Shown here in pieces: positions 1,758 to 59,022 of a stretch of 64,000 nucleotides of DNA. Below the pieces are notes generated by a model. It was not told where the DNA came from, ran no database searches, and saw only the letters and a program-made list of their open reading frames with translations. The stretch is from an uncultured Gammaproteobacteria bacterium (GTDB lineage: Bacteria > Patescibacteriota > Patescibacteriia > Magasanikbacterales > GWA2-37-8), in the NCBI GenBank assembly GCA_964540825.1, contig CAZINT010000002.1, positions 64,477-128,476 on the forward strand, read 5' to 3'. The position numbers and the translations under genes are program-made. Every line of letters starts with the position of its first letter. Positions within the stretch are counted from its first letter, which is position 1.

Positions 1758-1786
1758 ACTCTTTATAGATCAATTATAAAAGCAAA

Positions 1787-1818
1787 GAACGAACGGTGAC
1801 GCGGCCGTTCGTTCAAAA
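1787..1818. terminator. bidirectional hairpin terminator between the ABC transporter gene and the convergent GC-rich small gene
   Basis: perfect 10-bp inverted repeat GAACGAACGG (1787-1796) / CCGTTCGTTC (1805-1814) with 8-nt loop; T-rich on the minus strand side, AAAATCTT on the plus side. Confidence 0.6.
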
Positions 1819-1837
1819 TCTTAGGACTTGTCCACCC

Positions 1838-2038
1838 CTAGAGCTTGCAGGGGGGCTCGGGTGGAGGGTCGTCAGGGGGCGGGGGAGGCGGAGGGGGCGG
1901 AGCCGAGGGCGGACCGGTAGGTTCTGGGCATGGATCTGGTCTTTCGGCGCTGAACCCGGTCGGATCAAAGCACTTTGCGGGAAGGACACGAGCAGTGCCC
2001 AGCGTGGACAGCAAGCTTATGGCAAGCAATGTGCGCAT
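1838..2038 (-). CDS. small secreted proline-rich peptide (about 66 aa) encoded in a GC-rich island
   Basis: strong SD GGAGGTG 8 nt upstream of ATG at 2038; N-terminal hydrophobic signal-like segment MRTLLAISLLSTLGTARV; poly-Pro tract PPPPPPPPPDDPPPEPP; 3 Cys; local GC far above window average. Confidence 0.5.
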   Translation of the reverse strand: MRTLLAISLLSTLGTARVLPAKCFDPTGFSAERPDPCPEPTGPPSAPPPPPPPPPDDPPPEPPCKL

Positions 2039-2068
2039 TCCTGTTTCACCTCCTTTCCGGTGCCAGGA

Positions 2069-2099
2069 TAAAGGTGCGGTTTCTTCGCACACCTTTTTA
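2069..2099 (+). terminator. hairpin plus T-run (terminator-like) in the leader region of the minus-strand peptide gene; function unclear
   Basis: AGGTGCG (2072-2078) ... CGCACACCT (2086-2094) imperfect stem followed by TTTTT. Confidence 0.3.
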
Positions 2100-2189
2100 G
2101 GTTTTTGCGTCGACTAACCTAAAAGCGAAGAAATTTACCCTAGCATCGTTTCCGGTCGACGTCAAGATACTTGCCAAAATAAGCCAAAT

Positions 2190-9474: not shown

Positions 9475-11460
9475 ATGAGCGAGAAGGGATTGTTCGAAAT
9501 TTCAGAAAAAAAATCTCGCCGCTTTGATCTTGACGGCAAGTATCGCCTTGCCTGGGTGGAAGATGCGCTTGATTATGAAAAAGAAACAAATGAGCGCCTC
9601 GCAACACCGCACACTCGGTCGTACCTCGGTACGAGCATTCGCAGAAGCAAAATAATTATCTTTTGCTGTATCCTGGGAGTATTTTTTTCATTGATTATTG
9701 GCAAAATATTTTATTTGCAAATTATTCAAGGCGATCATTATCGGGCACTTGCTGAACAAAACCGCATCCGAACACTTCCGGTGCCAGCCGAACGCGGAAT
9801 TATTTACGATCGTTATAACAAGGAGCTCGTTCAGAATATTCCTAGTTTTACTCTCAGCATTATTCCTGCGGATTTGCCGCGTCCAGTAGCAGAGCGAGAA
9901 ACGATTCTTGAGCGCGTGGCTGGCATTAGCTCAATTCCACTTGATGATATTAAAAAAAGCATTGCTAAATTTAACTCCTACAGTTATCAGTCTTTAGTCA
10001 TTAAGGAAAATTTAGACTACCAATCTGCACTTAAGCTTTACATTGAAAATGCTGACCTGCCCGGAATTCTTATTGAAAGCGCCTCGAAGCGAAGTTATCC
10101 GTTTACTGATCAAACCTCTGCGAGCAGCACGCTAAGCCTTTCGCATATTTTAGGTTATTTAAGTAAAATTAACGACAATGAACTTGAAGATCACAAAGGT
10201 GAAGGATATCAGCTTTCTGATTCAATTGGTAAAACGGGTTTAGAGAAAGAGTATGAAACAGCCCTTCGCGGAACTTATGGCACTAAAAAAATAGAGGTAG
10301 ATGCTCGCGGCAAAGAGCGTAACACGCTCGCAATAGATCCGCCCCTTCCGGGTAAAAACCTTATTTTAAGCATCGATCTCGAAGCGCAGCACAAACTTGA
10401 AGAAGCGGTTAAAAATAATCTAGAAAAGGTTAAAAAAACTAAAGCAGCCGCTATTGCCATGAACCCTACGACCGGAGAAATTTTGGCTATGGTGAGCTGG
10501 CCGGCTTTTGACAATAATGACTTTTCTGGCGGTATTTCATTTGCTGATTATGAAAAATATTCTACTAATACCGATTTACCTTTATTTAACCGGAGTATTT
10601 CTGGGACATATCCACCCGGCTCAACCATCAAATTAATCGTTTCAGCTGCTGCGCTTCAGGAAAAAATTATTAGTTTTGATACTGCTTTCAATAGTATCGG
10701 CGGCCTCAACGTTGGCGGACATTACTTTAAAGACTGGAAAGTGGGCGGACACGGGATCACCAATGTTACCAAGGCTATTGCGTGGTCGGTAAATACTTTT
10801 TTCTACTATGTTGGCGGAGGCTATGGAGATTTTGTCGGCATGGGAGCAGATAAATTGCTAAGCTACTACCGGGCATTTCACCTGGATCAAAAAAGTGGAA
10901 TTGATATTCCGGGCGAACGCAGCGGTTTTTTACCCAGCAAAGAATGGAAAATGCAGCAAATTCACGAACCGTGGTATGTAGGCGATACATACAATATTTC
11001 CATTGGACAGGGAGATATTTTGGTAACCCCGCTCCGGGTAGCTTTATGGACAGCAGAAGTTGCGACCGGCGGAAAAATAGTTACACCCCATATTATCTCT
11101 AAAATAATTGATCCGACAACCAAACAAAATTCCGCCCCAACCTTTCCAACCGGTCAGCAAGAAGAAGTTTCGGCAGCCGCCTACGCGACTGTTCGCCAAG
11201 GTATGAGCGACTGTGTCAGCTATGGCAGCTGTAAACTGCTCCAAAACATAGGATTTAGTGCGGGCGGCAAAACAGGTACAGCACAATGGAACAGTAATCG
11301 GCCAACTCATGCCTGGTTTACCTCTTTTGCGCCACTTGCTAATCCGCAAATTGTTGTGACCGTACTGGTTGAAGAAGGCGGAGAAGGCTCAACAGCTGCC
11401 ATGCCAATTGCTGATGACTTTCTCAATTGGTGGGGTAAGAAGTATTTGACACACAACTAA
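9475..11460 (+). CDS. mrdA: penicillin-binding protein 2 (elongasome transpeptidase)
   Basis: N-terminal TM, dimerisation domain, transpeptidase SXXK (GSTIK), SXN (WSVN), KTG (KTGTAQ) motifs. Confidence 0.9.
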   Translation: MSEKGLFEISEKKSRRFDLDGKYRLAWVEDALDYEKETNERLATPHTRSYLGTSIRRSKIIIFCCILGVFFSLIIGKIFYLQIIQGDHYRALAEQNRIRTLPVPAERGIIYDRYNKELVQNIPSFTLSIIPADLPRPVAERETILERVAGISSIPLDDIKKSIAKFNSYSYQSLVIKENLDYQSALKLYIENADLPGILIESASKRSYPFTDQTSASSTLSLSHILGYLSKINDNELEDHKGEGYQLSDSIGKTGLEKEYETALRGTYGTKKIEVDARGKERNTLAIDPPLPGKNLILSIDLEAQHKLEEAVKNNLEKVKKTKAAAIAMNPTTGEILAMVSWPAFDNNDFSGGISFADYEKYSTNTDLPLFNRSISGTYPPGSTIKLIVSAAALQEKIISFDTAFNSIGGLNVGGHYFKDWKVGGHGITNVTKAIAWSVNTFFYYVGGGYGDFVGMGADKLLSYYRAFHLDQKSGIDIPGERSGFLPSKEWKMQQIHEPWYVGDTYNISIGQGDILVTPLRVALWTAEVATGGKIVTPHIISKIIDPTTKQNSAPTFPTGQQEEVSAAAYATVRQGMSDCVSYGSCKLLQNIGFSAGGKTGTAQWNSNRPTHAWFTSFAPLANPQIVVTVLVEEGGEGSTAAMPIADDFLNWWGKKYLTHN

Positions 11461-18978: not shown

Positions 18979-19250
18979 TTTTAGCTAATGTTAGCCAAAA
19001 ATTGACCCTTATGGGGTCTTTTTTGGTATTAAAGCCCTTATTTTTAGCCAAAATAGGGGATATAAGGTTAAAAAACAATGTCCAAAGTATTAAAACCGGA
19101 TAAATACTACAAATAAATATTTGGGAGCAGCATATAAAAGAATACACATAAGTAACAATTTATTCGACTAAAGCAAAAAGCTGACACCCGGCGCCGCATG
19201 CATCCAGGCGACGGTAGGGCCAGAAGGGAAGTGCTGTATTTTATAGGTTT

Positions 19251-19328
19251 AGGGGCATACTCTACGTCGTATAACATAGATTAAGCGACGTATTATAGAC
19301 CTTTTATTGGTAATAAAGACATGCCCCT
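19251..19328 (+). other. 78-nt element closed by a 8-9 bp long-range inverted repeat (AGGGGCAT ... ATGCCCCT) with two internal hairpins; function unknown
   Basis: outer arms 19251-19258 / 19321-19328; internal CGTCG...CGACG and CTTTTATT...AATAAAG stems give a three-way-junction-like layout; sits upstream of the promoter of the GC-rich lipoprotein gene. Confidence 0.3.
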
Positions 19329-19386
19329 GCTCTACAGGCAAGCTGGGTCTTCTGATGTGCTCAAAAAAGAAACATTGCTTTTAGCA

Positions 19387-19466
19387 TTGACAAAATCTGT
19401 ATTTAGTGTAAACCTATCTTTTGGACAAGTTTTGCCCAGCGTTTCAAACACTGTCTGATCAAGGAG
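19387..19466 (+). promoter_or_regulatory. promoter-like sequence and Shine-Dalgarno for the GC-rich lipoprotein gene
   Basis: -35 TTGACA at 19387-19392 (weak -10 around TAAACC), SD AAGGAG at 19461-19466 8 nt before ATG 19475. Confidence 0.4.
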
Positions 19467-19474
19467 CTATAATC

Positions 19475-19924
19475 ATGAACCGACTCGGAAACTTCCTCGC
19501 CGCAGCCGCCCTCACACTGCCCCTGTTCGGGTGCTACAACCCGGACCTGTCGTCGGGCAAGTTCCGTTGCGACAACAGCGCGCGCAGCTGCCCCGACGGG
19601 CAGGTGTGCTTGCCGTTCGCGAACCAGGGCCTGTTCTGCGTCAAGCCCCAGGAGTGCTGGCAGACGATGCTCGACTGCCAGCGCACGTGCCGCGACAGCG
19701 CCTGTTCGGCGATCTGCCGCAACATGGCGGTCAACGTGCAGAGCACGAGGATCGCCTTCAGCGTCTTCGCCGGCTGCATCGAGCAGCAGTGCCAGGGCAC
19801 CGCCCAGGGCAGCTCCAGCTGCGGGCCCGAGGCTGACGACCTGTCCTGCATCACCTGCATCCAGGACGTCTCGGCGGCCGGCGGCGCCTGCGCGGCCCAG
19901 GCCAAGACCTGCCTCACGAACTAG
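19475..19924 (+). CDS. Cys-rich secreted lipoprotein (149 aa) encoded in a GC-rich island (about 68% GC)
   Basis: signal peptide MNRLGNFLAAAALTLPLFGC with lipobox L-F-G-C; about 20 Cys in the mature part; strong GC3 codon bias unlike neighbouring genes; SD upstream. Confidence 0.7.
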   Translation: MNRLGNFLAAAALTLPLFGCYNPDLSSGKFRCDNSARSCPDGQVCLPFANQGLFCVKPQECWQTMLDCQRTCRDSACSAICRNMAVNVQSTRIAFSVFAGCIEQQCQGTAQGSSSCGPEADDLSCITCIQDVSAAGGACAAQAKTCLTN

Positions 19925-19950
19925 CCGCCCTCGCGCCGCGAGTTCGCCCC

Positions 19951-19980
19951 GGCGCACGACTCACCCTCGTGCGCCTTTAT
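19951..19980 (+). terminator. GC-rich hairpin terminator after the lipoprotein gene (first of two tandem hairpins)
   Basis: GGCGCACGA-ctcaccc-TCGTGCGCC followed by TTTAT. Confidence 0.6.
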
Positions 19981-19982
19981 CT

Positions 19983-20013
19983 AGAAGAGCTTAATGCATA
20001 GGCTCTTCTTTTA
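19983..20013 (+). terminator. second tandem terminator hairpin
   Basis: AGAAGAGC-12 nt-GCTCTTCT followed by TTTT. Confidence 0.6.
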
Positions 20014-20049
20014 GTTAAGGTCGCTTAATATTCACCTCACCCCCAAAAT

Positions 20050-21039
20050 ATGCTAGACTACTGGCATATGCAAAAATCTTCTACACCACTATTCAAACAC
20101 ATTCCTAATTTTCTTGATTACTGCGAAGTAGAAAAGGGCCTCTCCCCTACAACTACCAAAAATTATTACAACTTCCTCAAAATGTTTAAGGACTGGCTGG
20201 CTGACCAGTCCCTCACCAACCTTAAACCTCACGAACTCACGGCCGAACATATCTGGAATTACCGCCTCTACCTGTCGCGTAAAAAGGATAAAAAGACTAA
20301 TCAGCCCATCAAAAAAACCACCCAGAACTACTACCTTATCGCCTTGCGCAATCTGATGGCGTATTTTGCGACGCGGGATATCGTAGCCTTGCCAAGTGAC
20401 AAAATTCAACTCCCCAAATTAACTGAAAAAGAAAAACGAATTAAGTTCCTCAACTACGACCAGGTCAAAAAACTCATGACCATGCCGGATATGTCGACGA
20501 TCGAAGGCGTCCGAGATCGGGCAATCCTTGAGGTCCTCTTCTCTACCGGCATGCGTATCTCGGAGTTAACGTCGCTTAATATACGCCTCTTCGATATCCG
20601 CAATATTGTCGCTAAAAAAATTAAAGATTTGGAAATCAGTATTGCCGGTAAAGGCGGGTCGGTCCGCACCGTGTACTTCTCTACCGAAGCCCTTAATTGG
20701 CTCGGTAATTACCTTAAAACCCGCGTAAGCGACATGTACCCTCCCCTCTTTATTAACTACGCCAAAGCTCAAAAAGGCAGTGCTGAGCGTCGCCTGACCA
20801 CCCGCTCAATAGAGCGTGCTGTTAGGCGTTATGCTGGCATGGCCGGCCTCCCGGTTGACGCTACCCCGCATACCCTGCGCCACAGCTTCGCCACTGACCT
20901 TCTCGACCAGGGGGCGGACATGCGTTCGGTGCAGGAACTCTTGGGGCACAAAAATATTGTCACCACGCAGATTTATACGCATGTGACCAATAAAAAATTG
21001 CATGATGTACATGCAAAGTTTCATCGGGGGAATAAATAA
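20050..21039 (+). CDS. tyrosine site-specific recombinase, XerC/XerD family
   Basis: catalytic R (GMRISEL), H-x-x-R (HTLRHSFAT), H (LLGH), Y (TQIYTHV); C-terminal GADMRSVQELLGH...TTQIYTHV is typical of Xer recombinases. Confidence 0.85.
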   Translation: MLDYWHMQKSSTPLFKHIPNFLDYCEVEKGLSPTTTKNYYNFLKMFKDWLADQSLTNLKPHELTAEHIWNYRLYLSRKKDKKTNQPIKKTTQNYYLIALRNLMAYFATRDIVALPSDKIQLPKLTEKEKRIKFLNYDQVKKLMTMPDMSTIEGVRDRAILEVLFSTGMRISELTSLNIRLFDIRNIVAKKIKDLEISIAGKGGSVRTVYFSTEALNWLGNYLKTRVSDMYPPLFINYAKAQKGSAERRLTTRSIERAVRRYAGMAGLPVDATPHTLRHSFATDLLDQGADMRSVQELLGHKNIVTTQIYTHVTNKKLHDVHAKFHRGNK

Positions 21040-31796: not shown

Positions 31797-34430
31797 ATGA
31801 ATCCTCAAAATTTTACCAATAAGTCGCAGGAAACAATCCAGGTAGCGGCCCGCCTGGCCCATGAAAACGGTCAGGCCCAAATTGAACCGCCACATTTATT
31901 TCTGGCCTTTCTCCAAGACAGCGAGGGTATTGTTGTTTCTATTTTGCAAAAATTAAACGTGAACATCAACAATTTTGCCTTGGAAATGCAGAGCATGATT
32001 AACCGGCTCCCGAAGCAAGGCGAAAATTTTGGCGCCGCCCCCGTCGGCCAAGTGCTCCTAGGGCAGGCCATGGTCGGCATTTTTCAAAATGCCGCGAACG
32101 AAGCCAAACGTATGGGCGACGAATATGTAAGTGTCGAACATCTGCTGCTGGCTTTTTTGGTCACTAAAAATCCCATTAGCGATTTGTTGTCCGAAGACAA
32201 AGCAACGTATGATGCAGTGCTGCAAACATTGGTTACAATTCGCGGTACGCAGCGCGTAGACTCGCCAGAGCCGGAAAGCAAGTATAATGCGCTTGAAAAA
32301 TATGGTAAAAATTTGACTGAACTCGCGCGCAAAGAAAAAATTGATCCGGTCATCGGGCGTGATGACGAAATCCGCCGCGTCATGCAGATTCTCAGTCGCC
32401 GCACCAAAAATAACCCGGTGCTGATTGGTGAACCGGGAACCGGTAAAACAGCGGTAGTCGAAGGGCTCGCTCAGCGCATTGTTAACGGTGACGTTCCGGA
32501 GTCGCTCAAAAACAAAGAAATCATGTCGCTCGATATTGGCGCGCTGGTGGCCGGTGCAAAATTTCGCGGTGAATTTGAGGATCGTCTTAAAGCAGTTATC
32601 AAAGAAATAAATAATGCCGCCGGTAAAATCATTCTCTTTATCGACGAACTGCACACCATTGTGGGAGCAGGCTCAAGCGAAGGATCGATCGATGCATCAA
32701 ACATGCTAAAACCCATGCTCGCTCGCGGCGAACTCCACACAATTGGTGCAACCACGCTTAAAGAATACCAAAAATATATTGAAAAAGATGCAGCCCTTGA
32801 ACGACGCTTTCAACCCGTCATTATTAACGAACCGAGCGAAGATGATGCGGTCGCCATACTCCGCGGGATTAAAGAAAAATATGAAGTACACCACGGTGTG
32901 CGCATTACCGACGCTGCCCTTATTAGTGCCGTGAAATTATCCGAACGCTATATTACCGATCGCTTTTTACCTGATAAAGCAATTGATCTCGTGGACGAAG
33001 CAGCTTCCGCCCTTCGCCTGCAGATGGATTCGATGCCTGAAGAGCTTGATAAGATGAAGCGATCGATCATGAAACTTGAAATTGAAAAGCGCGCCCTTAA
33101 TAATGAAAAAGATACTGAATCCAAAGAACGACTGACTAAAATTGAAAAAGATTTGGCCGAGATTCACGAAGCAAGCAACGAACTGGAAGCCAAGTGGAAA
33201 AATGAAAAAGAAATTATTACCCTCATTCAGGATTCCAAAAAAGAAATGGATCGCTTGAAGCAGCAAGCAGATATCGAAGAGCGTCGCGGTGATCTTCAAA
33301 AAGTTGCCGAGATTCGCTATGGACGCCTGCCGCAACTTGAAAGTGAAATTAAAAAGAACGAAAAGAAATTAACGGAACTCCAAAAAATTCGCGGCATCCT
33401 CAAAGAAGAAGTGGGTGAGGAAGATATTGCCAGCGTGGTCGCTCGCTGGACTGGCATTCCGGTTAAGAAAATGCTTCAGAGTGAAACCAGCAAACTGACT
33501 CAAATGGAAAAGGTTTTGGGGGAACGTGTCATTGGACAAGAAGAAGCAGTAAAAGCTGTTTCAAACGCTATTCGCCGCTCCCGCGCGGGCATTGCACCGC
33601 CAAATCGTCCAATCGGTTCGTTTATTTTCCTCGGGCCTACAGGGGTGGGCAAGACCGAACTTGCGAAAGCACTCGCCGAATTTATGTTTGATACCGAAGA
33701 AGCGCTGGTACGCATTGACATGAGTGAATACATGGAAAAACACAGCACATCAAAATTAATCGGCTCCCCGCCGGGGTATATTGGCTACGATGAAGGCGGA
33801 CAGCTTACCGAGATCATCCGCCGGCGCCCCTACGCAGTCGTACTTCTCGACGAAATTGAAAAAGCACACCCTGATGTTTTCAACATCTTACTTCAAGTGC
33901 TCGATGATGGACGAGTCACCGACGCCAAAGGACGGGTGGTTAACTTCAAAAACACGGTTATCATCATGACCAGTAATATCGGCAGCCAGATGATTCTTGA
34001 CATGAATAAGCGCGGCGAATTCGGTTTTAAATCTGCTGAAAAGGGCAAAAAAGCGGTTGATACCTCTGTAAAAGAACGGGTCATGGCCGCGCTCCAGGAA
34101 CACTTTAAGCCGGAATTCCTCAATCGTATCGATGAAACTATCATGTTCCAAACCTTATCGGAGGCCCAGATTGAAAAAATTGTTGACCTGCAACTTGAGG
34201 TTATTCAAAAACGCTTGCACGAAAAAAGAATTACGCTATCCGTTGACCCCGCTGCCAAAAAGTATTTGGCTAAAGAAGGCTTTAACCCGGATTATGGTGC
34301 ACGCCCGCTCAAACGGCTTTTGCAAAATGAAATTCTGGACGAATTAGCCCTTAAAATTATTGAAGGAACAGTTGTCGAAGGGCAAAAAGTTAAAGTGAGC
34401 GTTAAGAGTAATAAAATTTTCTTAGAATAA
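31797..34430 (+). CDS. clpB: ATP-dependent chaperone ClpB
   Basis: Clp N-domain, two AAA+ modules (GEPGTGKT and GPTGVGKT Walker A), long coiled-coil middle domain between them. Confidence 0.95.
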
Positions 34431-34442
34431 AAAAACAAAAAA

Positions 34443-34470
34443 AGATCCACTTTAAATGGATCTTTTTTTC
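34443..34470. terminator. bidirectional rho-independent terminator after clpB
   Basis: AAAAAAAGATCCActttaaATGGATCTTTTTTT. Confidence 0.8.
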
Positions 34471-34479
34471 TTTCAAAAA

Positions 34480-34541
34480 CTTCGTTCACCCCATCTTCAC
34501 GACTTTGTAAGGCGTAAAAATGGGGACATGAGTGAACGAAG
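34480..34541. repeat. 62-nt nested inverted repeat at the left flank of a GC-rich island
   Basis: outer arms CTTCGTTCAC / GTGAACGAAG (10 bp), inner CCCCAT / ATGGGG. Confidence 0.5.
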
Positions 34542-34560
34542 TAGTGATAGCCCCCTTAGG

Positions 34561-34926
34561 TCACAGGCCGCCGAAGCGCCTACCAGGAGAACCGGTACGC
34601 TCCCGCTCCTCATACAGGTCCGGCACGTCGACCAGAAGACCCGCCTCCATTGAGGCACGGCCAGCCTTATCGGCCTCCTCTCTACTCATTCGCTCATCGA
34701 GCTGGGCGTGCAGGTAGTCCGCCAGCAAGGACGTGACGATCGCCGGCTGCGTAGTGAGGTCGAAGGAGCCGTCGGGCTCGAACTTGAACCCGCTGCCGAG
34801 CAGCACATCCTTCGCATTCTTGAGGTGCTGACGGGCTGCCAGCCAGCGCCTCATAGCGGCCAAAGCCAGCTCAAAAATTTTGATGGCGCTCGTGATCTCC
34901 TCGTGAGAATCGAACTTTGGACCCAT
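34561..34926 (-). CDS. hypothetical protein (121 aa) in a GC-rich island (about 60% GC)
   Basis: SD GGAGGTG 7 nt upstream of ATG 34926; promoter TTGTCA-N17-TATATA upstream; GC3-biased codons unlike neighbours; no recognisable domain. Confidence 0.55.
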   Translation of the reverse strand: MGPKFDSHEEITSAIKIFELALAAMRRWLAARQHLKNAKDVLLGSGFKFEPDGSFDLTTQPAIVTSLLADYLHAQLDERMSREEADKAGRASMEAGLLVDVPDLYEERERTGSPGRRFGGL

Positions 34927-34947
34927 ACGCGCACCTCCACGTGGCTG

Positions 34948-35002
34948 AATTGGTTTGTTTTTGGCTTATATACAGGTAAATAAGCCATTTGACAAACCAA
35001 TT
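34948..35002. promoter_or_regulatory. 55-bp nested palindrome overlapping the promoter of the 34561-34926 gene
   Basis: AATTGGTTTGT (34948-34958) / ACAAACCAATT (34992-35002) 11-bp perfect arms; inner GGCTTAT / ATAAGCC; the -35 TTGTCA and -10 TATATA for the minus-strand gene lie inside. Confidence 0.5.
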
Positions 35003-35125
35003 ACGAACATTACTTTTTACCATAAAAAGGCTTTTTTGTCAATACTTGGTCCCAAGGTTTAGCTATGCTATACTACTTTAATCCATTCCTCTTTTTTAAG
35101 CGTGGAATTGAATTTTAGCGAAAAT

Positions 35126-37603
35126 ATGGTAAAAAACAAAAAAAACTTTTTTTTATTTTTTATAACGAGCTTGATTTTATTTTTCCTCTCCTTCCTATCA
35201 CCTGAAAAAACTTTAGCCCAAGCCGAATTCAATCCGAATTTTATCATCTCAGACCAAGAACTACAGGATTATCAAACCTGGACGAGAAATGATGTGCAGA
35301 ATTTTTTAACCGGAAAAGGTAGTTTTTTAAGTGAATTTAGAACTGAAGATTACACCGGAACAGTTAAATCAGCCGCTGATATTATCTATGAGGCTGCTCA
35401 AAATTACCAAATTAACCCTAAATTTATTTTGGTAACCCTGCAAAAGGAGCAAAGCCTGATTACCGACGATTCCCCCGCTCAAAAACAATTAGACTGGGCA
35501 ACGGGCTACGCTGTCTGCGACAGCTGCTCCAGGACTGACCCGAGTGTCGCCAAGCATAAGGGATTTGGCAAACAAGTTGACGACGCGGCCGGTGTAATGC
35601 GGTGGTATTATGACCACAAAGACATTGCAACCCGACCTTTTCGTAAGGACGTAGCGGTTTCGGTCGACAATATGCAGGTTATCCCGCAGAGCTGGGCAAC
35701 GGCCTTTTTGTACACCTATACGCCGCATTTGCACGGCAACATGAACTTTGCCCGTATTTGGCAGACCTGGTTCAAACAAGTCTACCCTGATGGCTCGCTT
35801 TTGGAGTCGGACACTACCCGTGATGTGTATCTTATTCAAAACGGCCAGCGCCGCAAGTTTAAAAACAAGTCAGCCCTTATCAGTCGGGCTGATCCAAAAT
35901 TAGTTGTTACCATTTCGGATGTCGACCTTGGCAATTATCCGGTGGGTCCTGATATTAACTTTTCAAATTATTCACTGCTTCGCACTCCAACTCAAACGTA
36001 CTTGGTTGACTACGACACCGTCCGCCCATTTGCTTCACCTGACGTCGTGCGGCAATTTGGCTATAACCCCGATGAAATTGTCGATATACAAGAAAGCGAT
36101 CTCGCCGGGTACACTATTGGCAGCACGATTACTTCGAGCAGCCTGCAACCGATCGGTGCAATATTTCAGATTACTGATTTGAAAGACACGTACTATCTCT
36201 ACAAAGACGGCGTTCTTCACCCTATTCTCGACAAAAAAATTATTGACGCTAATTATAAAAATTTAACTATTGAAAAACACACGAGCCGGGAACTTGGACA
36301 ATACCAGGTGGCTGATATGCCCGTTACCTTTGCAGATGGTACTTTGCTTCAAAACAAAGATAGCAACCAAGTCTACGTTATTGAAAAAGGTAAAAAACGT
36401 CCGATCGCGGACAACGATACTTTTCTGGCACTTGGATACAAGCGAGCAAACGTCCTTATGGTCGACGTTTTGACTACCCTTAATATTCCTAACGGTGATC
36501 CGCTTTTCCTTAATACGAGCCTTTTATCTGCTAAAAATAAATACCTGGGCGATGCCGAGACAACTGTCAGCGATCTTTATAAGTCAAAGGTGCCCGCCTA
36601 TGTAATTGCGGAATATCCAACCGGCCGTATTATTAGCGGTAAAAATATCGACACTCGGTTTTCCATCGCTTCGCTTACCAAAGTACTGACAGCCAACGAA
36701 GCGCTGAATCAAAATTTTAAACCCACCGAATCTACCACCTATTCAGCAGCTAAGTATGCTATCGAAACTAACACGCTCGGTTTAAAGGAAGGTGAGAAAA
36801 TAAAAAATAACGATCTCCTTAATACGATGCTTATCGGTTCAATTAACAATATTGCCCGCATGGTTGCCCAGGCAACGGGCCTGACTGAACAGGACTTGCT
36901 TGCTAAAATCACCGATCGTTTAGCCACTTGGGGAGCGGATAGCACCACAATTACCGATGTTACCGGACTTGACGAAGGCAACAAATCGACCGCCCGCGAT
37001 CTTTTAAAGATCTTTACGCGCACGCTTGAAAATACTGACCTTAAAAAAATCATGGCTAAAGACGGGTATACCTTTACGTCGACAATTGGCACCAAAAAGG
37101 TCACCCATGGCGTAAAAAATACCAACCAACTTTTCTTTACGAAGAATAAAAACTATACTATTCTTGATAGTAAAACGGGCTATACTGATGAAGCCGGAGG
37201 TGTTATGATGATGTTAGTTCAAACCGGCAAGGCGGCCAGTAGCCCAGCAACACTCAAAACCACCCTTAAACAAGGCGCTAGCGGCACGGAAGTTACCCTC
37301 CTTCAGCAAATGCTTCAAAATAACGGCTACCTCGCTAAGACAATTAAAGCGAACGGTAATTTTGGAGTAAGCACGCTCGAAGCGGTTAAAAAATTCCAAA
37401 AGGATCACAATGTAACAGCCGAAGGACTGGTCGGACCCGCCACGCGAGCCGCGCTTAATGCAACGATCAAAACAACGTCAACTGCCGGCAAACAATATGT
37501 AATTATTACGCTCGGCAACACTGATTACGCCCACCGTTTTGATGAACCAAATAAAATGGCTGAATGGCTTGCTAAAGGAAACTTTACCGTGGCCAGCAAA
37601 TAA
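35126..37603 (+). CDS. large secreted cell-wall protein: N-terminal unknown domain, four tandem Y-x-[IV]-x-x-G-[KQ]-[KR]-[RH] repeats, S11 D-Ala-D-Ala carboxypeptidase domain, C-terminal peptidoglycan-binding domain
   Basis: signal peptide; S11 motifs SxxK (SIASLTK), SxN (GSINN), KTG (KTGYT); PG_binding_1-like GASGTEVTLLQQMLQNNGYL...GLVGPATRAAL; ATG at 35126 (ORF track starts at a GTG at 35102). Confidence 0.8.
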   Translation: MVKNKKNFFLFFITSLILFFLSFLSPEKTLAQAEFNPNFIISDQELQDYQTWTRNDVQNFLTGKGSFLSEFRTEDYTGTVKSAADIIYEAAQNYQINPKFILVTLQKEQSLITDDSPAQKQLDWATGYAVCDSCSRTDPSVAKHKGFGKQVDDAAGVMRWYYDHKDIATRPFRKDVAVSVDNMQVIPQSWATAFLYTYTPHLHGNMNFARIWQTWFKQVYPDGSLLESDTTRDVYLIQNGQRRKFKNKSALISRADPKLVVTISDVDLGNYPVGPDINFSNYSLLRTPTQTYLVDYDTVRPFASPDVVRQFGYNPDEIVDIQESDLAGYTIGSTITSSSLQPIGAIFQITDLKDTYYLYKDGVLHPILDKKIIDANYKNLTIEKHTSRELGQYQVADMPVTFADGTLLQNKDSNQVYVIEKGKKRPIADNDTFLALGYKRANVLMVDVLTTLNIPNGDPLFLNTSLLSAKNKYLGDAETTVSDLYKSKVPAYVIAEYPTGRIISGKNIDTRFSIASLTKVLTANEALNQNFKPTESTTYSAAKYAIETNTLGLKEGEKIKNNDLLNTMLIGSINNIARMVAQATGLTEQDLLAKITDRLATWGADSTTITDVTGLDEGNKSTARDLLKIFTRTLENTDLKKIMAKDGYTFTSTIGTKKVTHGVKNTNQLFFTKNKNYTILDSKTGYTDEAGGVMMMLVQTGKAASSPATLKTTLKQGASGTEVTLLQQMLQNNGYLAKTIKANGNFGVSTLEAVKKFQKDHNVTAEGLVGPATRAALNATIKTTSTAGKQYVIITLGNTDYAHRFDEPNKMAEWLAKGNFTVASK

Positions 37604-46492: not shown

Positions 46493-46536
46493 ACCAGATA
46501 CTGAGGTTTTTATCCATTGAACGAAGAAGGCACCCC

Positions 46537-46585
46537 CTTTCCCCCGTCTTAAAGTATAAAGCGGGTCGGGGGTGCCGAGATGCTC
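46537..46585. repeat. 49-nt GC-rich hairpin at the boundary of a GC-rich island
   Basis: GGCACCCCC (46537-46545) / GGGGGTGCC (46577-46585) perfect 9-bp arms, inner CCCG/CGGG. Confidence 0.5.
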
Positions 46586-46587
46586 CT

Positions 46588-46821
46588 CTAGTGCTGGAGC
46601 GGAACGAGGCGCTTGAGCTGCCCCGGGCGGCGCTTGGCGATCCGGGCCAAACGTTCCTGGCTACTCAGCCCGCGCTTGCGCTGGAGGATCGTCCGCGGCG
46701 GGTGACGCATCGTCCACTCGCCCTCACCACGGGTTCGTGCCCGCGGTTCACGCCTTAGTCGGCGTTCTTTCTTCTCCTTTCGCCGACCCTTTTCACGTCC
46801 CGGAACTTTTTCTCGTACCAT
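46588..46821 (-). CDS. very basic Arg/Lys-rich small protein (77 aa) in a GC-rich island
   Basis: SD AAGGAGG 5 nt before ATG 46821; promoter TTGACG-N17-TGgTATAGC upstream; about 40% R+K; no recognisable domain. Confidence 0.4.
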   Translation of the reverse strand: MVREKVPGREKGRRKEKKERRLRREPRARTRGEGEWTMRHPPRTILQRKRGLSSQERLARIAKRRPGQLKRLVPLQH

Positions 46822-47026
46822 TCGCTCCTCCTTATAAGAAGCCTTTGGATGCTATACCAAAATTGACCAGCTCGTCAAGCACTTGAGGTCATAAAAAATC
46901 TCATGGTACATAAGCAAAAATACCCTAAGATTAGTGGAGTACGCACTGTCGTACTCCCCAGGCTGCTTATTGAGAGCAGCGAGTCAACAAAGTCCCGGTC
47001 CGCGATCGCAGCGGACAGATCACGTA

Positions 47027-47515
47027 CTAGGGCACCGAATACGGAAACAGGTCGTTCCAAAGACCCTCTGTGCACTCGTTCGCACCTGTATACGCACGAA
47101 GCGTTATGTGGCCCTGCGCATCAACCAGCAGGCAGATCGGATACGGAACCAGCCAGCCCTTTTGTGCGAACAATTTACACCGCTCGTGATCTTTGCGCAG
47201 CTCGCAAAAGCGTGTCGAGATATCACGTCGGAACAGTTCCCATTCTTCTTGCGCTTCATTACCTGTGCCTTCTTCTTTGTGCACCGACGAGACGCTGATG
47301 AGTCCCGGGTGTTCATCGGCACGGGTTTTGAGCCAACCCATCGTCCACCAGCAAGCTTCGCAGTGGTTTCCCCCAAGAACTACAACCTCGTACTTCGTTT
47401 TTACCACAGGCTCGCTGTAGTTAAGTTGTTTCGCAACGAGCACGTGGCCCACAAACAGAATCGAAAAGAGGCCCGAGAAAAGCAAGAAAACTCTTGATTT
47501 GAGTAGCGTTGCCAT
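47027..47515 (-). CDS. secreted protein with CxxC motif (HCEACW), possible thiol-disulfide oxidoreductase-like
   Basis: signal peptide MATLLKSRVFLLFSGLFSILFVGHVLVA; VVVLGGNHCEACWW resembles a thioredoxin-fold active site; SD GGGGAAG before ATG; GC about 55%. Confidence 0.45.
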   Translation of the reverse strand: MATLLKSRVFLLFSGLFSILFVGHVLVAKQLNYSEPVVKTKYEVVVLGGNHCEACWWTMGWLKTRADEHPGLISVSSVHKEEGTGNEAQEEWELFRRDISTRFCELRKDHERCKLFAQKGWLVPYPICLLVDAQGHITLRAYTGANECTEGLWNDLFPYSVP

Positions 47516-47669: not shown

Positions 47670-47879
47670 ATGACACTCGAACAGATGTTTGTAGAGTGCT
47701 CAAACCTGGCAGAAGGTGAAACAAAGACCTTTGTCTTCCCGCGGCCTGTAGCTCGCCGAAAGGTAGCTCGTCTGGCTGAACGCGTTATGGCTGAAAAACT
47801 TCGCCAAGGCGGCTATCACTCGGTCACGATTGACGGGCTGCACGATCGGTGGACTGCGACCTGCATTCCGGTCATTTAA
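47670..47879 (+). CDS. hypothetical small protein (69 aa) in the GC-rich island
   Basis: GGGAG 7 nt before ATG; divergent from the 47027-47515 gene; no recognisable domain. Confidence 0.35.
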   Translation: MTLEQMFVECSNLAEGETKTFVFPRPVARRKVARLAERVMAEKLRQGGYHSVTIDGLHDRWTATCIPVI

Positions 47880-57555: not shown

Positions 57556-57708
57556 AGAAAAGTGATTTTAAATCTTAATGGCATCAGTATACCATGGAAG
57601 TGCTCGCATGCTCAACAAAAAATTCCTAGTTATGCACCTAAAAACCCTTGACAAAACGCTTAACCAGCGTAGCGTATGTGCCAGTTCTTTTTGGGAGGAA
57701 CTTGTATA

Positions 57709-57993
57709 ATGTCAGGTTTTACAAAAGCACTACGCGCACTTACCAATCCTTGCATGCGTCCCGGTCAGGAGCCCGGCAAGCTCTGTACGGGACTTCGGAT
57801 TGTTCCGGGTGATCAAGTCGTCCGAAAAGAAGACCCGCCAAAAGTGGCCGCACAACGTCTGCAAGTCGTGGAAGGGGCAGACCACGACATGTTCGCAGTC
57901 TGCGACGAGTGCGGCGATTGCAGGAGAATCGGGAGTGTTTCCCAAATCCTGGGACTGGCACCTCCCAAGGCCCTCACCACCTGTGAGGAATAA
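57709..57993 (+). CDS. hypothetical Cys-containing small protein (94 aa) in a GC-rich island
   Basis: GGGAGG 9 nt upstream of ATG 57709; 6 Cys including CDECGDC; GC-rich codons; followed by a GC hairpin. Confidence 0.45.
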   Translation: MSGFTKALRALTNPCMRPGQEPGKLCTGLRIVPGDQVVRKEDPPKVAAQRLQVVEGADHDMFAVCDECGDCRRIGSVSQILGLAPPKALTTCEE

Positions 57994-58007
57994 CCACCCT
58001 TACCAAA

Positions 58008-58034
58008 GCGGGCGCAGCGAAGACGCTGCCCCGC
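58008..58034 (+). terminator. GC-rich hairpin after the 94-aa ORF
   Basis: GCGGGCGCAGCG-aaga-CGCTGCCCCGC followed by TTGTTCAT. Confidence 0.45.
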
Positions 58035-58044
58035 TTGTTCATAT

Positions 58045-59022
58045 CTAAAGGATACTTTGGTGCTCCTGAACAATAGCTTCGACTTCATCGGCATTTTCCG
58101 CTTCCATGAGTTTCACGCGTAATTCTTTCGCTCCGTCAAAGCCATTCACATACGCCTTATAGTGTTTTTTCATTAAGGCAAAACTTTTTTTCTCACCGAG
58201 TAATTTTTCAAACAGATGCGTGTGCTCAACCAGTACGCGCGTTTTTTCTTCCGGCGTAATTGTCTTGTAATCTCGTTCGCGATTAAATAACCACGGATTG
58301 CCAAAAATTCCTCGCCCAATCATAACACCGTCACAACCGGTTTCGCGAACGCGTTGATTGGCTTCGTCTAAGTCTTTTACATCGCCATTTCCCAAAATAA
58401 GCGTCTTGTCCGAAGACGAATCATACTTATCGCGAATGGCTACGGCCCGCGCAATTTCTTCCCAGTGCGCCGGTACGAGTGACATTTCTTTTTTAGTGCG
58501 GGCATGCAGTGTAATTGCGGCTGGTTCTGCTTCGAGCAAATTGGGTAACCAGGTATCAAGTACATTTTTATTATACCCAAGGCGCGTTTTAACCGAGACC
58601 GGCAATTTGCCAGCACCTCGTTTGGTGGCCGCAATAATTTCTTTCGCTAATTCCGGATACTGGATAAGCGCCGCACCCGAGCATTGTTTACCGCTGATGC
58701 TACGCTCAGGGCAGCCCATATTAATATCGATACCGTCAAAACCAAGTTCTTGAACCAAAAGAGCAGTTTGGTAAAAATTTTCCGGTTTCGAGCCAAAAAC
58801 CTGAGCAATAATCGGGCGCTCCGATTCGTCATAGATGAAATCGGTTAGCAGCTCAGCTCTACCCGGCGAACATAAGCCGTCGCACGAAACAAATTCCGTC
58901 CAGAGCACATCAGGCTTGCCGTACTTGGCAATAATAAATCGAAAAGCCGCGTCCGTGACATTGGCCATGGGCGCGAGGACAAAAATGGGTTTGGGTAAGT
59001 TTTTCCAAAAGCCTTGAACCAT
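58045..59022 (-). CDS. tRNA-dihydrouridine synthase (DusB-like)
   Basis: N-terminal FVLAPMANVTDAAFR, TIM-barrel FMN-binding motifs, C-terminal helical domain. Confidence 0.85.
   Translation of the reverse strand: MVQGFWKNLPKPIFVLAPMANVTDAAFRFIIAKYGKPDVLWTEFVSCDGLCSPGRAELLTDFIYDESERPIIAQVFGSKPENFYQTALLVQELGFDGIDINMGCPERSISGKQCSGAALIQYPELAKEIIAATKRGAGKLPVSVKTRLGYNKNVLDTWLPNLLEAEPAAITLHARTKKEMSLVPAHWEEIARAVAIRDKYDSSSDKTLILGNGDVKDLDEANQRVRETGCDGVMIGRGIFGNPWLFNRERDYKTITPEEKTRVLVEHTHLFEKLLGEKKSFALMKKHYKAYVNGFDGAKELRVKLMEAENADEVEAIVQEHQSIL

What the first reader, a model, noticed from the sequence alone, without database searches (positions are those of the whole stretch)
34480..35002. Island 3: GC-rich 121-aa gene bracketed by two about 60-nt nested palindromes, one overlapping its promoter
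The left flank carries a nested inverted repeat CTTCGTTCAC..CCCCAT..ATGGGG..GTGAACGAAG. The right flank has a perfect 11-bp IR AATTGGTTTGT / ACAAACCAATT with an inner GGCTTAT / ATAAGCC. This palindrome contains the -35 (TTGTCA) and -10 (TATATA) of the minus-strand gene, so it could be an operator for a dimeric regulator or a cruciform. The gene itself has no recognisable domain.
Basis: seen in the sequence. Interest (0 to 1): 0.55.

Follow-up and report, generated by a model that had tools for sequence, protein, structure and literature searches.

The report
Orphan GC-rich minigene inserted beside clpB
A roughly 560-base insertion found only in this Patescibacteria (CPR) genome carries one small GC-rich gene with no relatives anywhere; its two flanking palindromes look like the gene's terminator and a stem-loop (or promoter element) ahead of its ribosome-binding site, so it is a real but fairly ordinary "extra gene" whose protein function is unknown.

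Summary
Two nested palindromes (34479-34542 and 34948-35002, each with perfect 11-bp outer arms) bracket a GC-rich 121-aa ORF (34561-34926, minus strand). They are the only perfect IRs of at least 11 bp with loops of 30 nt or more in the 64 kb.

The unit (about 34470-35030) is an insertion. Three related genomes (91, 81 and 77% aa identity on the neighbouring gene) have clpB followed after 119-130 bp by the same S11 peptidase gene, with no island and no palindromes.

The ORF looks coding: codon periodicity p=4.5e-6, GC3 0.75 against 0.435 in host genes, and GGAGGT 6 nt before the ATG. It has no homologue in about 15 billion proteins. AlphaFold predicts a plain helical hairpin.

The left palindrome reads best as the gene's intrinsic terminator. 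The right palindrome does contain TTGTCA-17-TATATA. A perfect TTGACA-17-TAAAAA lies just upstream, and two other GC-rich orphan minigenes in this genome carry same-sized (54-56 nt) palindromes between a better promoter and the SD. A 5'-UTR stem-loop is therefore at least as likely as an operator.

There is no evidence for a MITE, IS or attC. The closest analogue is a phage "moron", but this one sits in a cellular chromosome. Protein function is unknown.

The parts
34437..34469 (.). Bidirectional terminator hairpin of clpB (AAAAAAAGATCCA-N7-TGGATCTTTTTTT). It is host context and backs up termination of the island gene.
   Evidence: Equivalent hairpins follow clpB in the relatives.
34470..35030 (.). 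Approximate extent of the DNA that is extra relative to three related genomes (about 560 bp). CTTTTTT occurs at both edges (34462-34469 and 35031-35037). This could be a target duplication or just T-tract coincidence.
   Evidence: Alignment with L002, and intergenic sequences of L018 and L019.
34479..34542 (-). Left nested palindrome (64 nt), read as the intrinsic terminator / 3' stem-loop of the 121-aa gene. Outer stem 11 bp, 6-nt bulge, inner 13-bp stem. In the mRNA sense it is followed by UUUUG.
   Evidence: -33 kcal/mol, z -6.5; sense -31.4 vs antisense -23.7 kcal/mol.
34561..34926 (-). 121-aa orphan ORF (protein P0001), GC 61%, GC1/2/3 = 0.65/0.44/0.75. Predicted helical hairpin (helices 8-44 and 62-94) with a disordered C-terminal tail.
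34933..34938 (-). Shine-Dalgarno GGAGGT, 6 nt upstream of the ATG.
   Evidence: Read from the sequence.
34948..35002 (-). Right nested palindrome (55 nt, 19 bp). It is a candidate 5'-UTR / 5'-terminal stem-loop, or alternatively a promoter-embedded operator. It contains TTGTCA (34995->34990)-17-TATATA (34972->34967).
35014..35042 (-). Alternative upstream promoter candidate: TTGACA (35042->35037), 17-nt spacer ending in TGG, TAAAAA (35019->35014). It would start the mRNA about 3-5 nt before the palindrome.
   Evidence: Read from the sequence. Not called by the scan because the -10 lacks the final T. Rests on analogy with unit I0, which has TTGACA-17-TATACT upstream of its palindrome.

Best explanation
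Island 3 is a lineage-specific, autonomous single-gene transcription unit ("moron-like") inserted into the clpB-to-S11-peptidase spacer of a Patescibacteria (Magasanikbacteria-like) chromosome.

Shown:
- It is extra DNA relative to three relatives.
- Its ORF has coding periodicity, foreign codon composition and a strong SD.
- It has no detectable homologue.

Inferred:
- Transcription starts in the AT-rich right flank, either at TTGACA-17-TAAAAA just upstream of the palindrome or at TTGTCA-17-TATATA inside it.
- If the upstream promoter is used, the 55-nt palindrome becomes a stable stem-loop at the very 5' end of the mRNA, ending 9 nt before the SD. Such a stem-loop would protect the message from 5'-end-dependent decay and/or serve as a processing or regulatory site.
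- Translation gives a 121-aa acidic, cytoplasmic helical-hairpin protein of unknown function.
- Transcription stops at the left palindrome (stem-loop plus U-tract), backed up by the bidirectional clpB terminator.
For: Insertion:
- L002/L026 (91% aa identity on the S11 gene), L018/L024 (81%) and L019/L025 (77%) all have clpB, a terminator, then TATACT and the S11 gene within 119-130 bp. None has an island or the palindromes.
- An independent Logan assembly of run SRR11567520 is identical over 14,460 bp.

Coding:
- GC periodicity chi-square p = 4.5e-6.
- GC3 is 0.746 against 0.435 +/- 0.046 for 38 long host ORFs (z = 6.7).
- GGAGGT lies 6 nt before the ATG.
- The GC-rich core has no excess RNA structure (z = -1.3 and -0.55) and no Rfam hit.
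- The AF2 single-sequence model has pLDDT 75.7 and shows two long helices.

Terminator:
- -33 kcal/mol, z = -6.5, with a U-run after the stem, and more stable in the mRNA sense through G-U pairs.

5' stem-loop reading:
- A scan of about 84 kb for long nested hairpins directly upstream of SD + ORF finds only I0, I1 and I3, plus one weak hit at 10943-11004. All three have 54-56 nt and 19 pairs, and all precede GC-rich orphan ORFs.
- In I0 a consensus TTGACA-17-TATACT promoter sits upstream of the hairpin.
- 5'-terminal stem-loops are established mRNA stabilisers (primary studies listed in the review PMC3997798).

Moron analogy: own promoter and terminator, deviating GC, and a position between genes that are adjacent in relatives (PMC3594210).
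Against: - There is no transcript data, so the TSS, the promoter choice and termination are all inferred.
- Both promoter candidates lack the near-invariant final T of the -10, and the consensus scan called neither.
- The right palindrome has no G-U pairs and is not more stable in the mRNA sense (-20.6 vs -22.2 kcal/mol). Nothing therefore shows it acts as RNA rather than DNA.
- The promoter and hairpin flanks are AT-rich like the host while only the ORF is GC-rich. This is awkward for simple transfer of a whole unit from a GC-rich donor.
- One sister island (I4) has positional orthologues in relatives, so GC-rich small genes here are not all recent imports.
- An ORF of 121 codons in 61% GC DNA is not by itself improbable (my estimate is roughly 2% per frame).
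- The protein has no homologue, so its function is a guess.
Confidence: 0.55

Rival explanations
1. First reader's view. The right palindrome is a DNA-level operator (or cruciform) overlapping the real promoter TTGTCA-17-TATATA. It is bound by a dimeric or tetrameric regulator, possibly the island's own protein.
For: - The hexamers and the 17-nt spacing are present inside the palindrome.
- The palindrome is built only of Watson-Crick pairs and is equally stable on both strands, as expected for a DNA-level symmetric site.
- The inner dyad covers the spacer and the -10.
Against: - Arms of 11 bp separated by 33 bp with a nested inner dyad are atypical for a simple dimer operator.
- The -10 lacks the final T and was not called.
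- The encoded protein is acidic, has no HTH or RHH fold and no family hit.
- Same-sized palindromes in I0 and I1 have unrelated sequences and lie downstream of their promoters, and I1 encodes a secreted peptide.
- There are no homologous loci in which to test conservation.
Confidence: 0.2
2. The two palindromes are the hairpin ends of a small non-autonomous mobile element (MITE, IS200/IS605-type PATE, or an integron-like cassette with an attC-like site) that carried the ORF in as a passenger.
For: - The GC-rich DNA is exactly bracketed by the two hairpins, and the whole unit is absent from relatives.
- CTTTTTT is present at both edges.
- Several similar GC-rich units exist in the genome, one of them inside the atp operon.
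- The hairpin length (54-64 nt) is in the range of the shortest attC sites (from my own knowledge).
Against: - The two hairpins differ from each other, and there are no terminal inverted repeats.
- Neither arm recurs in the 64-kb window or in the relatives' loci. I did not run the arm searches on the about 20 kb flanking the window (L021, L022).
- No copy turned up in the viral or JGI metagenome contigs beyond unrelated hairpins that share only the 11-mer arms.
- The attC core motifs RYYYAAC / GTTRRRY are absent (by inspection).
- No transposase or integrase adjoins the island.
- The CTTTTTT repeat lies in a terminator T-tract and is low-complexity.
- The left hairpin is explained by termination.
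Confidence: 0.12
3. The ORF is not a functional gene. The island is a fragment of foreign (GC-rich) coding DNA, a decaying pseudogene, or an assembly artefact, and the open frame survives by chance.
For: - It is an orphan in 5.8 billion clusters and 1.84 billion representatives. The only other hit was a spurious repeat protein.
- GC-rich DNA has few stop codons.
- It is present in a single genome or sample.
Against: - There is strong in-frame periodicity and a full-length frame with ATG, with a GGAGGT SD at ideal spacing.
- A dedicated terminator-like hairpin follows directly after the stop codon.
- The same sequence appears in an independent assembly.
- The AF2 model is reasonably confident for a single sequence.
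Confidence: 0.13

Closest known systems
Phage morons (e.g. HK97 gene 15 element)
   Same: A single extra gene sits between two genes that are adjacent in relatives. It has its own promoter-like and terminator elements, and its GC content deviates from its surroundings, which implies horizontal acquisition (definition in PMC3594210; features shown).
   Different: It sits in a cellular chromosome between housekeeping genes (clpB and an S11 DD-carboxypeptidase), not in a phage or prophage. Only the ORF is compositionally foreign, while the regulatory flanks are host-like. It also carries a 55-nt nested palindrome ahead of the SD.
5'-terminal mRNA stabiliser stem-loops (ompA, papA, aprE leaders)
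   Same: A stable hairpin would lie within a few nucleotides of the 5' end if the upstream promoter is used, followed by a strong SD. A 3' terminator hairpin then closes the message (literature listed in PMC3997798).
   Different: The TSS is unknown. The hairpin is unusually long (19 bp over 55 nt, nested) and is a perfect DNA palindrome without G-U pairs. No decay data exist.
Palindromic operators overlapping promoters (autoregulated small repressors)
   Same: Dyad symmetry covers -35/-10-like hexamers immediately upstream of a small gene.
   Different: The arm spacing is 33 bp with a nested inner dyad. The encoded protein has no DNA-binding fold or family. Analogous palindromes in sister units lie downstream of their promoters.
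Integron gene cassettes (attC) and hairpin-ended elements (IS200/IS605 PATEs, MITEs)
   Same: A short promoter-proximal ORF is bracketed by imperfect hairpins of about 55-65 nt, and several such small units are scattered in one genome.
   Different: There are no attC core motifs, no adjacent integrase, no TIRs, no repeated copies and no transposase.
Rop-like / TraM-like helical-hairpin proteins
   Same: The predicted fold is two long antiparallel helices. The best structural superpositions include a lengthened Rop variant (9cfs_A, TM 0.82 on the target) and TraM (2q0o).
   Different: No match is significant (best E = 0.19), and this is a generic coiled-coil geometry. There is no sequence similarity, and the protein is twice the size of Rop.

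Membership tests
Phage moron | Extra DNA between two genes that are adjacent in related genomes | tested here: met
   clpB and the S11 gene are 119-130 bp apart in L002/L026, L018/L024 and L019/L025, against 671 bp here.
Phage moron | Nucleotide composition differs from neighbouring genes | tested here: met
   GC is 0.61 against 0.445. GC3 is 0.746 against 0.435 +/- 0.046, z = 6.7.
Phage moron | Own promoter | tested here: inconclusive
   There are two sigma70-like candidates (TTGTCA-17-TATATA and TTGACA-17-TAAAAA). Both lack the final T of the -10, and neither was called by the scan. There is no TSS data.
Phage moron | Own factor-independent terminator | tested here: met
   A hairpin of -33 kcal/mol (z = -6.5) starts 18 nt after the stop codon, is followed by a U-run, and is favoured in the mRNA sense. 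The simple scan missed it because the loop exceeds 8 nt.
Phage moron | Resides in a phage or prophage genome | tested here: not met
   The neighbours are ClpB, an S11 peptidase, LigB/Memo, PriA, Def, Fmt and Wzy. The island protein has no PHROG hit and no phage tblastn hit.
MITE / IS element | Terminal inverted repeats at the two ends of the inserted DNA | tested here: not met
   No IR joins the left and right ends beyond A/T runs. The two palindromes are each self-contained and are unrelated to each other.
MITE / IS element | Multiple copies in the genome or in related genomes | tested here: not met
   Neither arm recurs in the window or in the relatives' loci. The viral and metagenome hits share only the 11-mers. 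The rest of the MAG could not be scanned.
MITE / IS element | Target-site duplication | tested here: inconclusive
   CTTTTTT flanks the extra DNA (34462-34469 and 35031-35037), but it lies in a terminator T-tract.
Integron gene cassette | attC site with R''/R' core motifs (RYYYAAC ... GTTRRRY) | tested here: not met
   Inspection of both palindromes on both strands finds no such cores.
Integron gene cassette | Array next to an integron integrase / attI | tested here: not met
   This is a single unit between clpB and the S11 gene. The only tyrosine recombinase in the window is about 14 kb away (20050-21039).
Autoregulated repressor with palindromic operator | Encoded protein has a DNA-binding fold (HTH, RHH, etc.) | tested here: not met
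   There is no family hit; the best is HTH_Tnp_IS630 at E = 0.19, below cutoff. The AF2 model is a helical hairpin with no significant structural neighbour. The model comes from a single sequence, so this is not definitive.
Autoregulated repressor with palindromic operator | Operator half-sites conserved in homologous loci | not testable with these tools
   No homologous locus carrying the island exists in any collection searched.
Intrinsic (Rho-independent) terminator (left palindrome) | Stable stem-loop immediately followed by a U-tract, downstream of a stop codon on the coding strand | tested here: met
   The U-run is UUUU(G) plus the last stem base. The stem-loop (64 nt) is atypically long.
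5'-terminal mRNA stabiliser stem-loop (right palindrome) | Hairpin within a few nt of the transcript 5' end | not testable with these tools
   This depends on which promoter is used. It is supported only by analogy with I0 and I1.
Known structured RNA families (Rfam) | Covariance-model match | tested here: not met
   There is no hit at gathering thresholds in the 64 kb. Only chance-level hits (E of 0.14 or more) occur in 34350-35150.

The most novel reading that the evidence does not exclude
Island 3 may be one member of a previously undescribed class of small GC-rich orphan gene cassettes that populate this Patescibacteria lineage. I found at least 7 in about 84 kb, including one antisense inside the atp operon. 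Three of them (I0, I1, I3) share a hallmark palindrome of about 55 nt and 19 bp directly ahead of the SD. That palindrome could be the recombination or ssDNA-hairpin site, or a processing signal, of a cassette insertion/turnover mechanism that seeds compositionally foreign ORFs behind host-like promoters.
Probability: 0.13. Interest if true: 0.7.

Novelty: new member of a known kind. Interest (0 to 1): 0.35.

Why it matters
Taken alone, this is one more lineage-specific orphan gene, with tidy expression signals and an unknown function. Its value lies in the context. An ultra-small CPR genome appears to tolerate, and perhaps recruit, many tiny GC-rich orphan genes in and between housekeeping operons. 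Several of these have the same hairpin-SD-ORF-terminator layout. If that pattern holds genome-wide and across relatives, it would bear on how reduced episymbiont genomes gain novel, fast-evolving small proteins, and on what role long 5' hairpins play in their expression.

Tried and rejected
- Known RNA (tmRNA, RNase P, other). Rfam at gathering thresholds on 64 kb, an E-value search on the locus and ARAGORN were all negative. The GC-rich core has no excess structure.
- Protein homology. The word-indexed search (5.8 G clusters) and full HMMER on 1.84 G representatives returned only the protein itself. P0002 (4561 aa) is a spurious sum of weak repeat matches. tblastn-type scans of metagenome, viral, plasmid and phage collections were negative. 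PDB sequences and PADLOC were negative.
- Fold search of the AF2 model against PDB and BFVD gave only generic coiled-coil matches, with E of 0.05 or more.
- Palindrome copies elsewhere. The eight exact-arm hits in viral and metagenome contigs have unrelated inner sequence. The left palindrome had no viral hit.
- attC, MITE, IS and IS200/605 readings were rejected on motifs, copy number and the absence of an enzyme.
- Shared 8-mer TTCGTTCA in the 3' flanks of I1, I3 and I4 (4 of 5 window copies).
- TAGGGTA(AAT) shared upstream of I0, I1 and I4 is not enriched.
- A concatenated query of the I2 and I4 proteins found nothing. It also missed the I4 protein, which is known to be in the database, so that negative result is unreliable.
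- A search for the run accessions in the literature found nothing.

Full report
**What is there.** The window is 44.5% GC. The clpB gene (31797-34430, +) ends with its own A/T-flanked hairpin (34437-34469). That hairpin also reads as a terminator on the minus strand. An 833-aa S11 DD-carboxypeptidase / PG-binding gene starts at 35102. Between the two genes lie 671 bp, in this order:
- a 64-nt nested palindrome (34479-34542);
- a GC-rich block (34543-34947, about 0.61-0.64 GC) containing a 121-aa ORF on the minus strand (34561-34926);
- a 55-nt nested palindrome (34948-35002);
- about 100 bp of AT-rich DNA.

**More than chance.** Both palindromes fold much better than dinucleotide shuffles (z = -4.3 to -6.5, with 0 of 200 shuffles as good). 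In the 64 kb there are 11 perfect inverted repeats of at least 11 bp with loops of 3-50 nt, against about 1 expected. Nine are ordinary short-loop terminators. The only two with loops of 30 nt or more are the two that bracket this ORF.

**It is an insertion.** The neighbouring S11 protein has close relatives at 91%, 81% and 77% identity. In all three genomes clpB is followed by a terminator hairpin, then about 16 nt, then TATACT and the S11 gene. The gap is only 119-130 bp and contains neither the island nor either palindrome (arm searches). Parsimony favours one gain in this lineage. The extra DNA is about 34470-35030. CTTTTTT occurs at both edges, but this sits in a T-tract, so a target duplication cannot be claimed. 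An independent Logan assembly of run SRR11567520 matches the window over 14,460 bp without a mismatch, which argues against an assembler-specific chimera. Named relatives of the S11 protein are Candidatus Magasanikbacteria / Patescibacteria, so the host is a CPR bacterium.

**Is the ORF a gene?**
- The GC content of the three codon positions is 0.65/0.44/0.75 (chi-square p = 4.5e-6). This is the pattern of a gene that evolved at about 60% GC.
- Its GC3 is 6.7 sd above the 38 long ORFs of the window (0.435 +/- 0.046).
- GGAGGT lies 6 nt before the ATG.
- The block is not a structured RNA (z = -1.3 and -0.55) and matches no Rfam family.
- The protein has no Pfam, NCBIfam, PHROG or PADLOC family and no PDB sequence relative.
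- It has no homologue among 5.8 billion clusters or 1.84 billion representatives. The sole extra hit is a repeat-protein artefact.
- It has no tblastn relative in the metagenome, viral, plasmid or phage collections.
- AlphaFold2 without an alignment gives pLDDT 75.7 / pTM 0.61, with two long helices (8-44, 62-94) and a disordered tail. Foldseek finds only non-significant coiled-coil look-alikes such as Rop variants and TraM.

I conclude that this is probably a real orphan gene. My confidence is about 0.75, and its biochemical function is unknown.

**Left palindrome.** In the mRNA sense it begins 18 nt after the stop codon. It folds to -31 to -33 kcal/mol using two G-U pairs that become mismatches on the other strand (antisense -23.7). 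It runs into UUUUG. That is the anatomy of an intrinsic terminator or 3' protective hairpin, although a long one. The terminators of sister units and of orthologues of one of them are likewise 45-50-nt hairpins with 9-bp GC-rich outer stems and unrelated sequences.

**Right palindrome.** The hexamers TTGTCA and TATATA, 17 nt apart, are indeed inside it. The -10 lacks the usual final T, and the consensus scan did not call it. Directly upstream lies TTGACA (35042->35037), then a 17-nt spacer ending in TGG, then TAAAAA (35019->35014). This candidate has the same weakness in its -10, but it would start the mRNA 3-5 nt before the palindrome.

Context decides my preference. The window plus 20 kb of flanking contig holds at least seven short GC-rich small-ORF units. 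Each has TTGAC(A/G)-16/17 plus a -10, a strong SD, an ORF and a terminator. A blind scan for long nested hairpins immediately upstream of SD + ORF in these 84 kb returns only three convincing cases. They are I0, I1 and this island, all with 54-56 nt and 19 pairs, and all preceding GC-rich orphan ORFs. In I0 a consensus TTGACA-17-TATACT sits upstream of the hairpin. I1 encodes a secreted Pro-rich peptide, which cannot be an autoregulator. By analogy, the palindrome here is more likely a 5'-UTR / 5'-terminal stem-loop than an operator. Such stem-loops are a known way to stabilise bacterial mRNAs (primary studies listed in PMC3997798). The caveat is that all three 5' palindromes are pure Watson-Crick and are no more stable in the mRNA sense. 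A DNA-level role is therefore not excluded.

**Mobile-element readings.**
- The two palindromes are unrelated to each other, and there are no terminal inverted repeats.
- No further copies occur in the window or in relatives.
- Exact-arm searches of viral and JGI metagenome contigs returned eight hairpins that share only the 11-mers. The left palindrome had none.
- attC core motifs are absent, and no integrase or transposase adjoins the island.

These readings keep a small residual probability, mainly because I could not scan the rest of the genome.

**Comparison with known systems.** The closest concept is the phage "moron". This is an extra gene with its own promoter and terminator and a deviant GC content, sitting between genes that are adjacent in relatives (PMC3594210). 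Four of the five defining features are met or plausible. The fifth, residence in a phage, is not met. I therefore describe the island as moron-like, not as a moron.

Two observations complicate a simple transfer from a GC-rich donor. First, only the ORF is GC-rich, while the flanks are host-like. Second, island I4 (a 77-aa Arg-rich protein) has a positional orthologue at only 43% identity in the 91% relative. At the same site in the 81% relative there is an equally long, GC-rich basic ORF with no detectable similarity. So at least some GC-rich minigenes are inherited and evolve very fast.

**Verdict.** The island is a lineage-specific orphan minigene with a terminator and a promoter-proximal hairpin. 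This is a modestly interesting new member of a known kind. The more novel possibility is a family of hairpin-marked GC-rich cassettes in CPR genomes. It is not excluded, but it rests on three examples in one genome.

Noticed in passing
L021:3966-4540 (about 6 kb upstream of the window start, same genome): Unit I0 is a GC-rich (0.60) 137-aa orphan ORF on the strand opposite to the ATP synthase operon, inserted between the genes for the alpha (ATP-synt_ab) and gamma (ATP-synt) subunits. It has TTGACA-17-TATACT, a 56-nt nested 5' palindrome abutting the SD, and a terminator hairpin. Its GC1/2/3 of 0.62/0.43/0.77 is almost identical to Island 3.
   Followed up: partly
window 1778-2140: Unit I1 is a GC-rich 66-aa secreted-looking Pro-rich ORF (MRTLLAIS...PPPPPPPPP) on the minus strand between an ABC transporter and a radical-SAM gene. 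It has a 54-nt nested palindrome (2080-2133) between TTGACG-17-TAGGGT and the SD, plus a terminator at 1787-1814. No gene was called here in the public annotation.
   Followed up: partly
window 19448-20026: Unit I2 is a 149-aa Cys-rich lipoprotein-like ORF (lipobox LFGC) with extreme GC3 (0.95) in a 44% GC genome, followed by two terminator hairpins. It lies directly upstream of a 329-aa ORF that I read by eye as a tyrosine recombinase (20050-21039; no family search run). No family hit was found, and the exact sequence is not in the protein collection.
   Followed up: partly
window 46512-46900; L026:15800-16100; L024:21352-21800: Unit I4 is a 77-aa very basic Arg-rich ORF after the polysaccharide flippase gene. 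The 91% relative has a 74-aa positional orthologue at only 43% identity (motif QRKRGL[ST]xxER). The 81% relative has a 77-aa basic GC-rich ORF at the same site with no detectable similarity. All are GC-rich, so this looks like a fast-evolving native small gene.
   Followed up: partly
window 57640-58045 and L022:10680-11010: Units I5 (94 aa) and I6 (78 aa) are moderately GC-rich small Cys-rich (zinc-ribbon-like CxxC) orphan ORFs, each with a TTGACA/TTGAAA promoter, a strong SD and a terminator. I6 lies just upstream of what looks by eye like the start of a tRNA gene, cut off at the contig end (no tRNA scan run on L022). Both are known only from this genome.
   Followed up: partly
window 1808, 34481, 34533, 46518: The 8-mer TTCGTTCA occurs 5 times in the window (3 expected), but 4 of the 5 copies lie in the 3' flanks or terminator stems of GC-rich units I1, I3 and I4. 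This is a post-hoc observation, with no extended similarity around the motif.
   Followed up: partly
L026:16335-16601 vs window 47027-47515: The region after I4 is variable between close relatives. The 91% relative has an 88-aa Cys-rich lipoprotein gene (GC 0.60) where the window has a 162-aa minus-strand ORF. The next small gene (window 47670-47879) is conserved.
   Followed up: no
whole window 1-64000: There is no tRNA gene and no Rfam family at gathering threshold anywhere in the 64 kb.
   Followed up: yes
window 19160-19400: A mixed-composition non-coding stretch upstream of I2 looked structured by eye. It has no Rfam match (E of 1 or less) and no excess folding energy (z = -0.95).
   Followed up: yes
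L021:5486-5773: A second domain-less 95-aa ORF sits inside the ATP synthase operon, between the genes for the gamma (ATP-synt) and beta (ATP-synt_ab) subunits. It was not examined.
   Followed up: no
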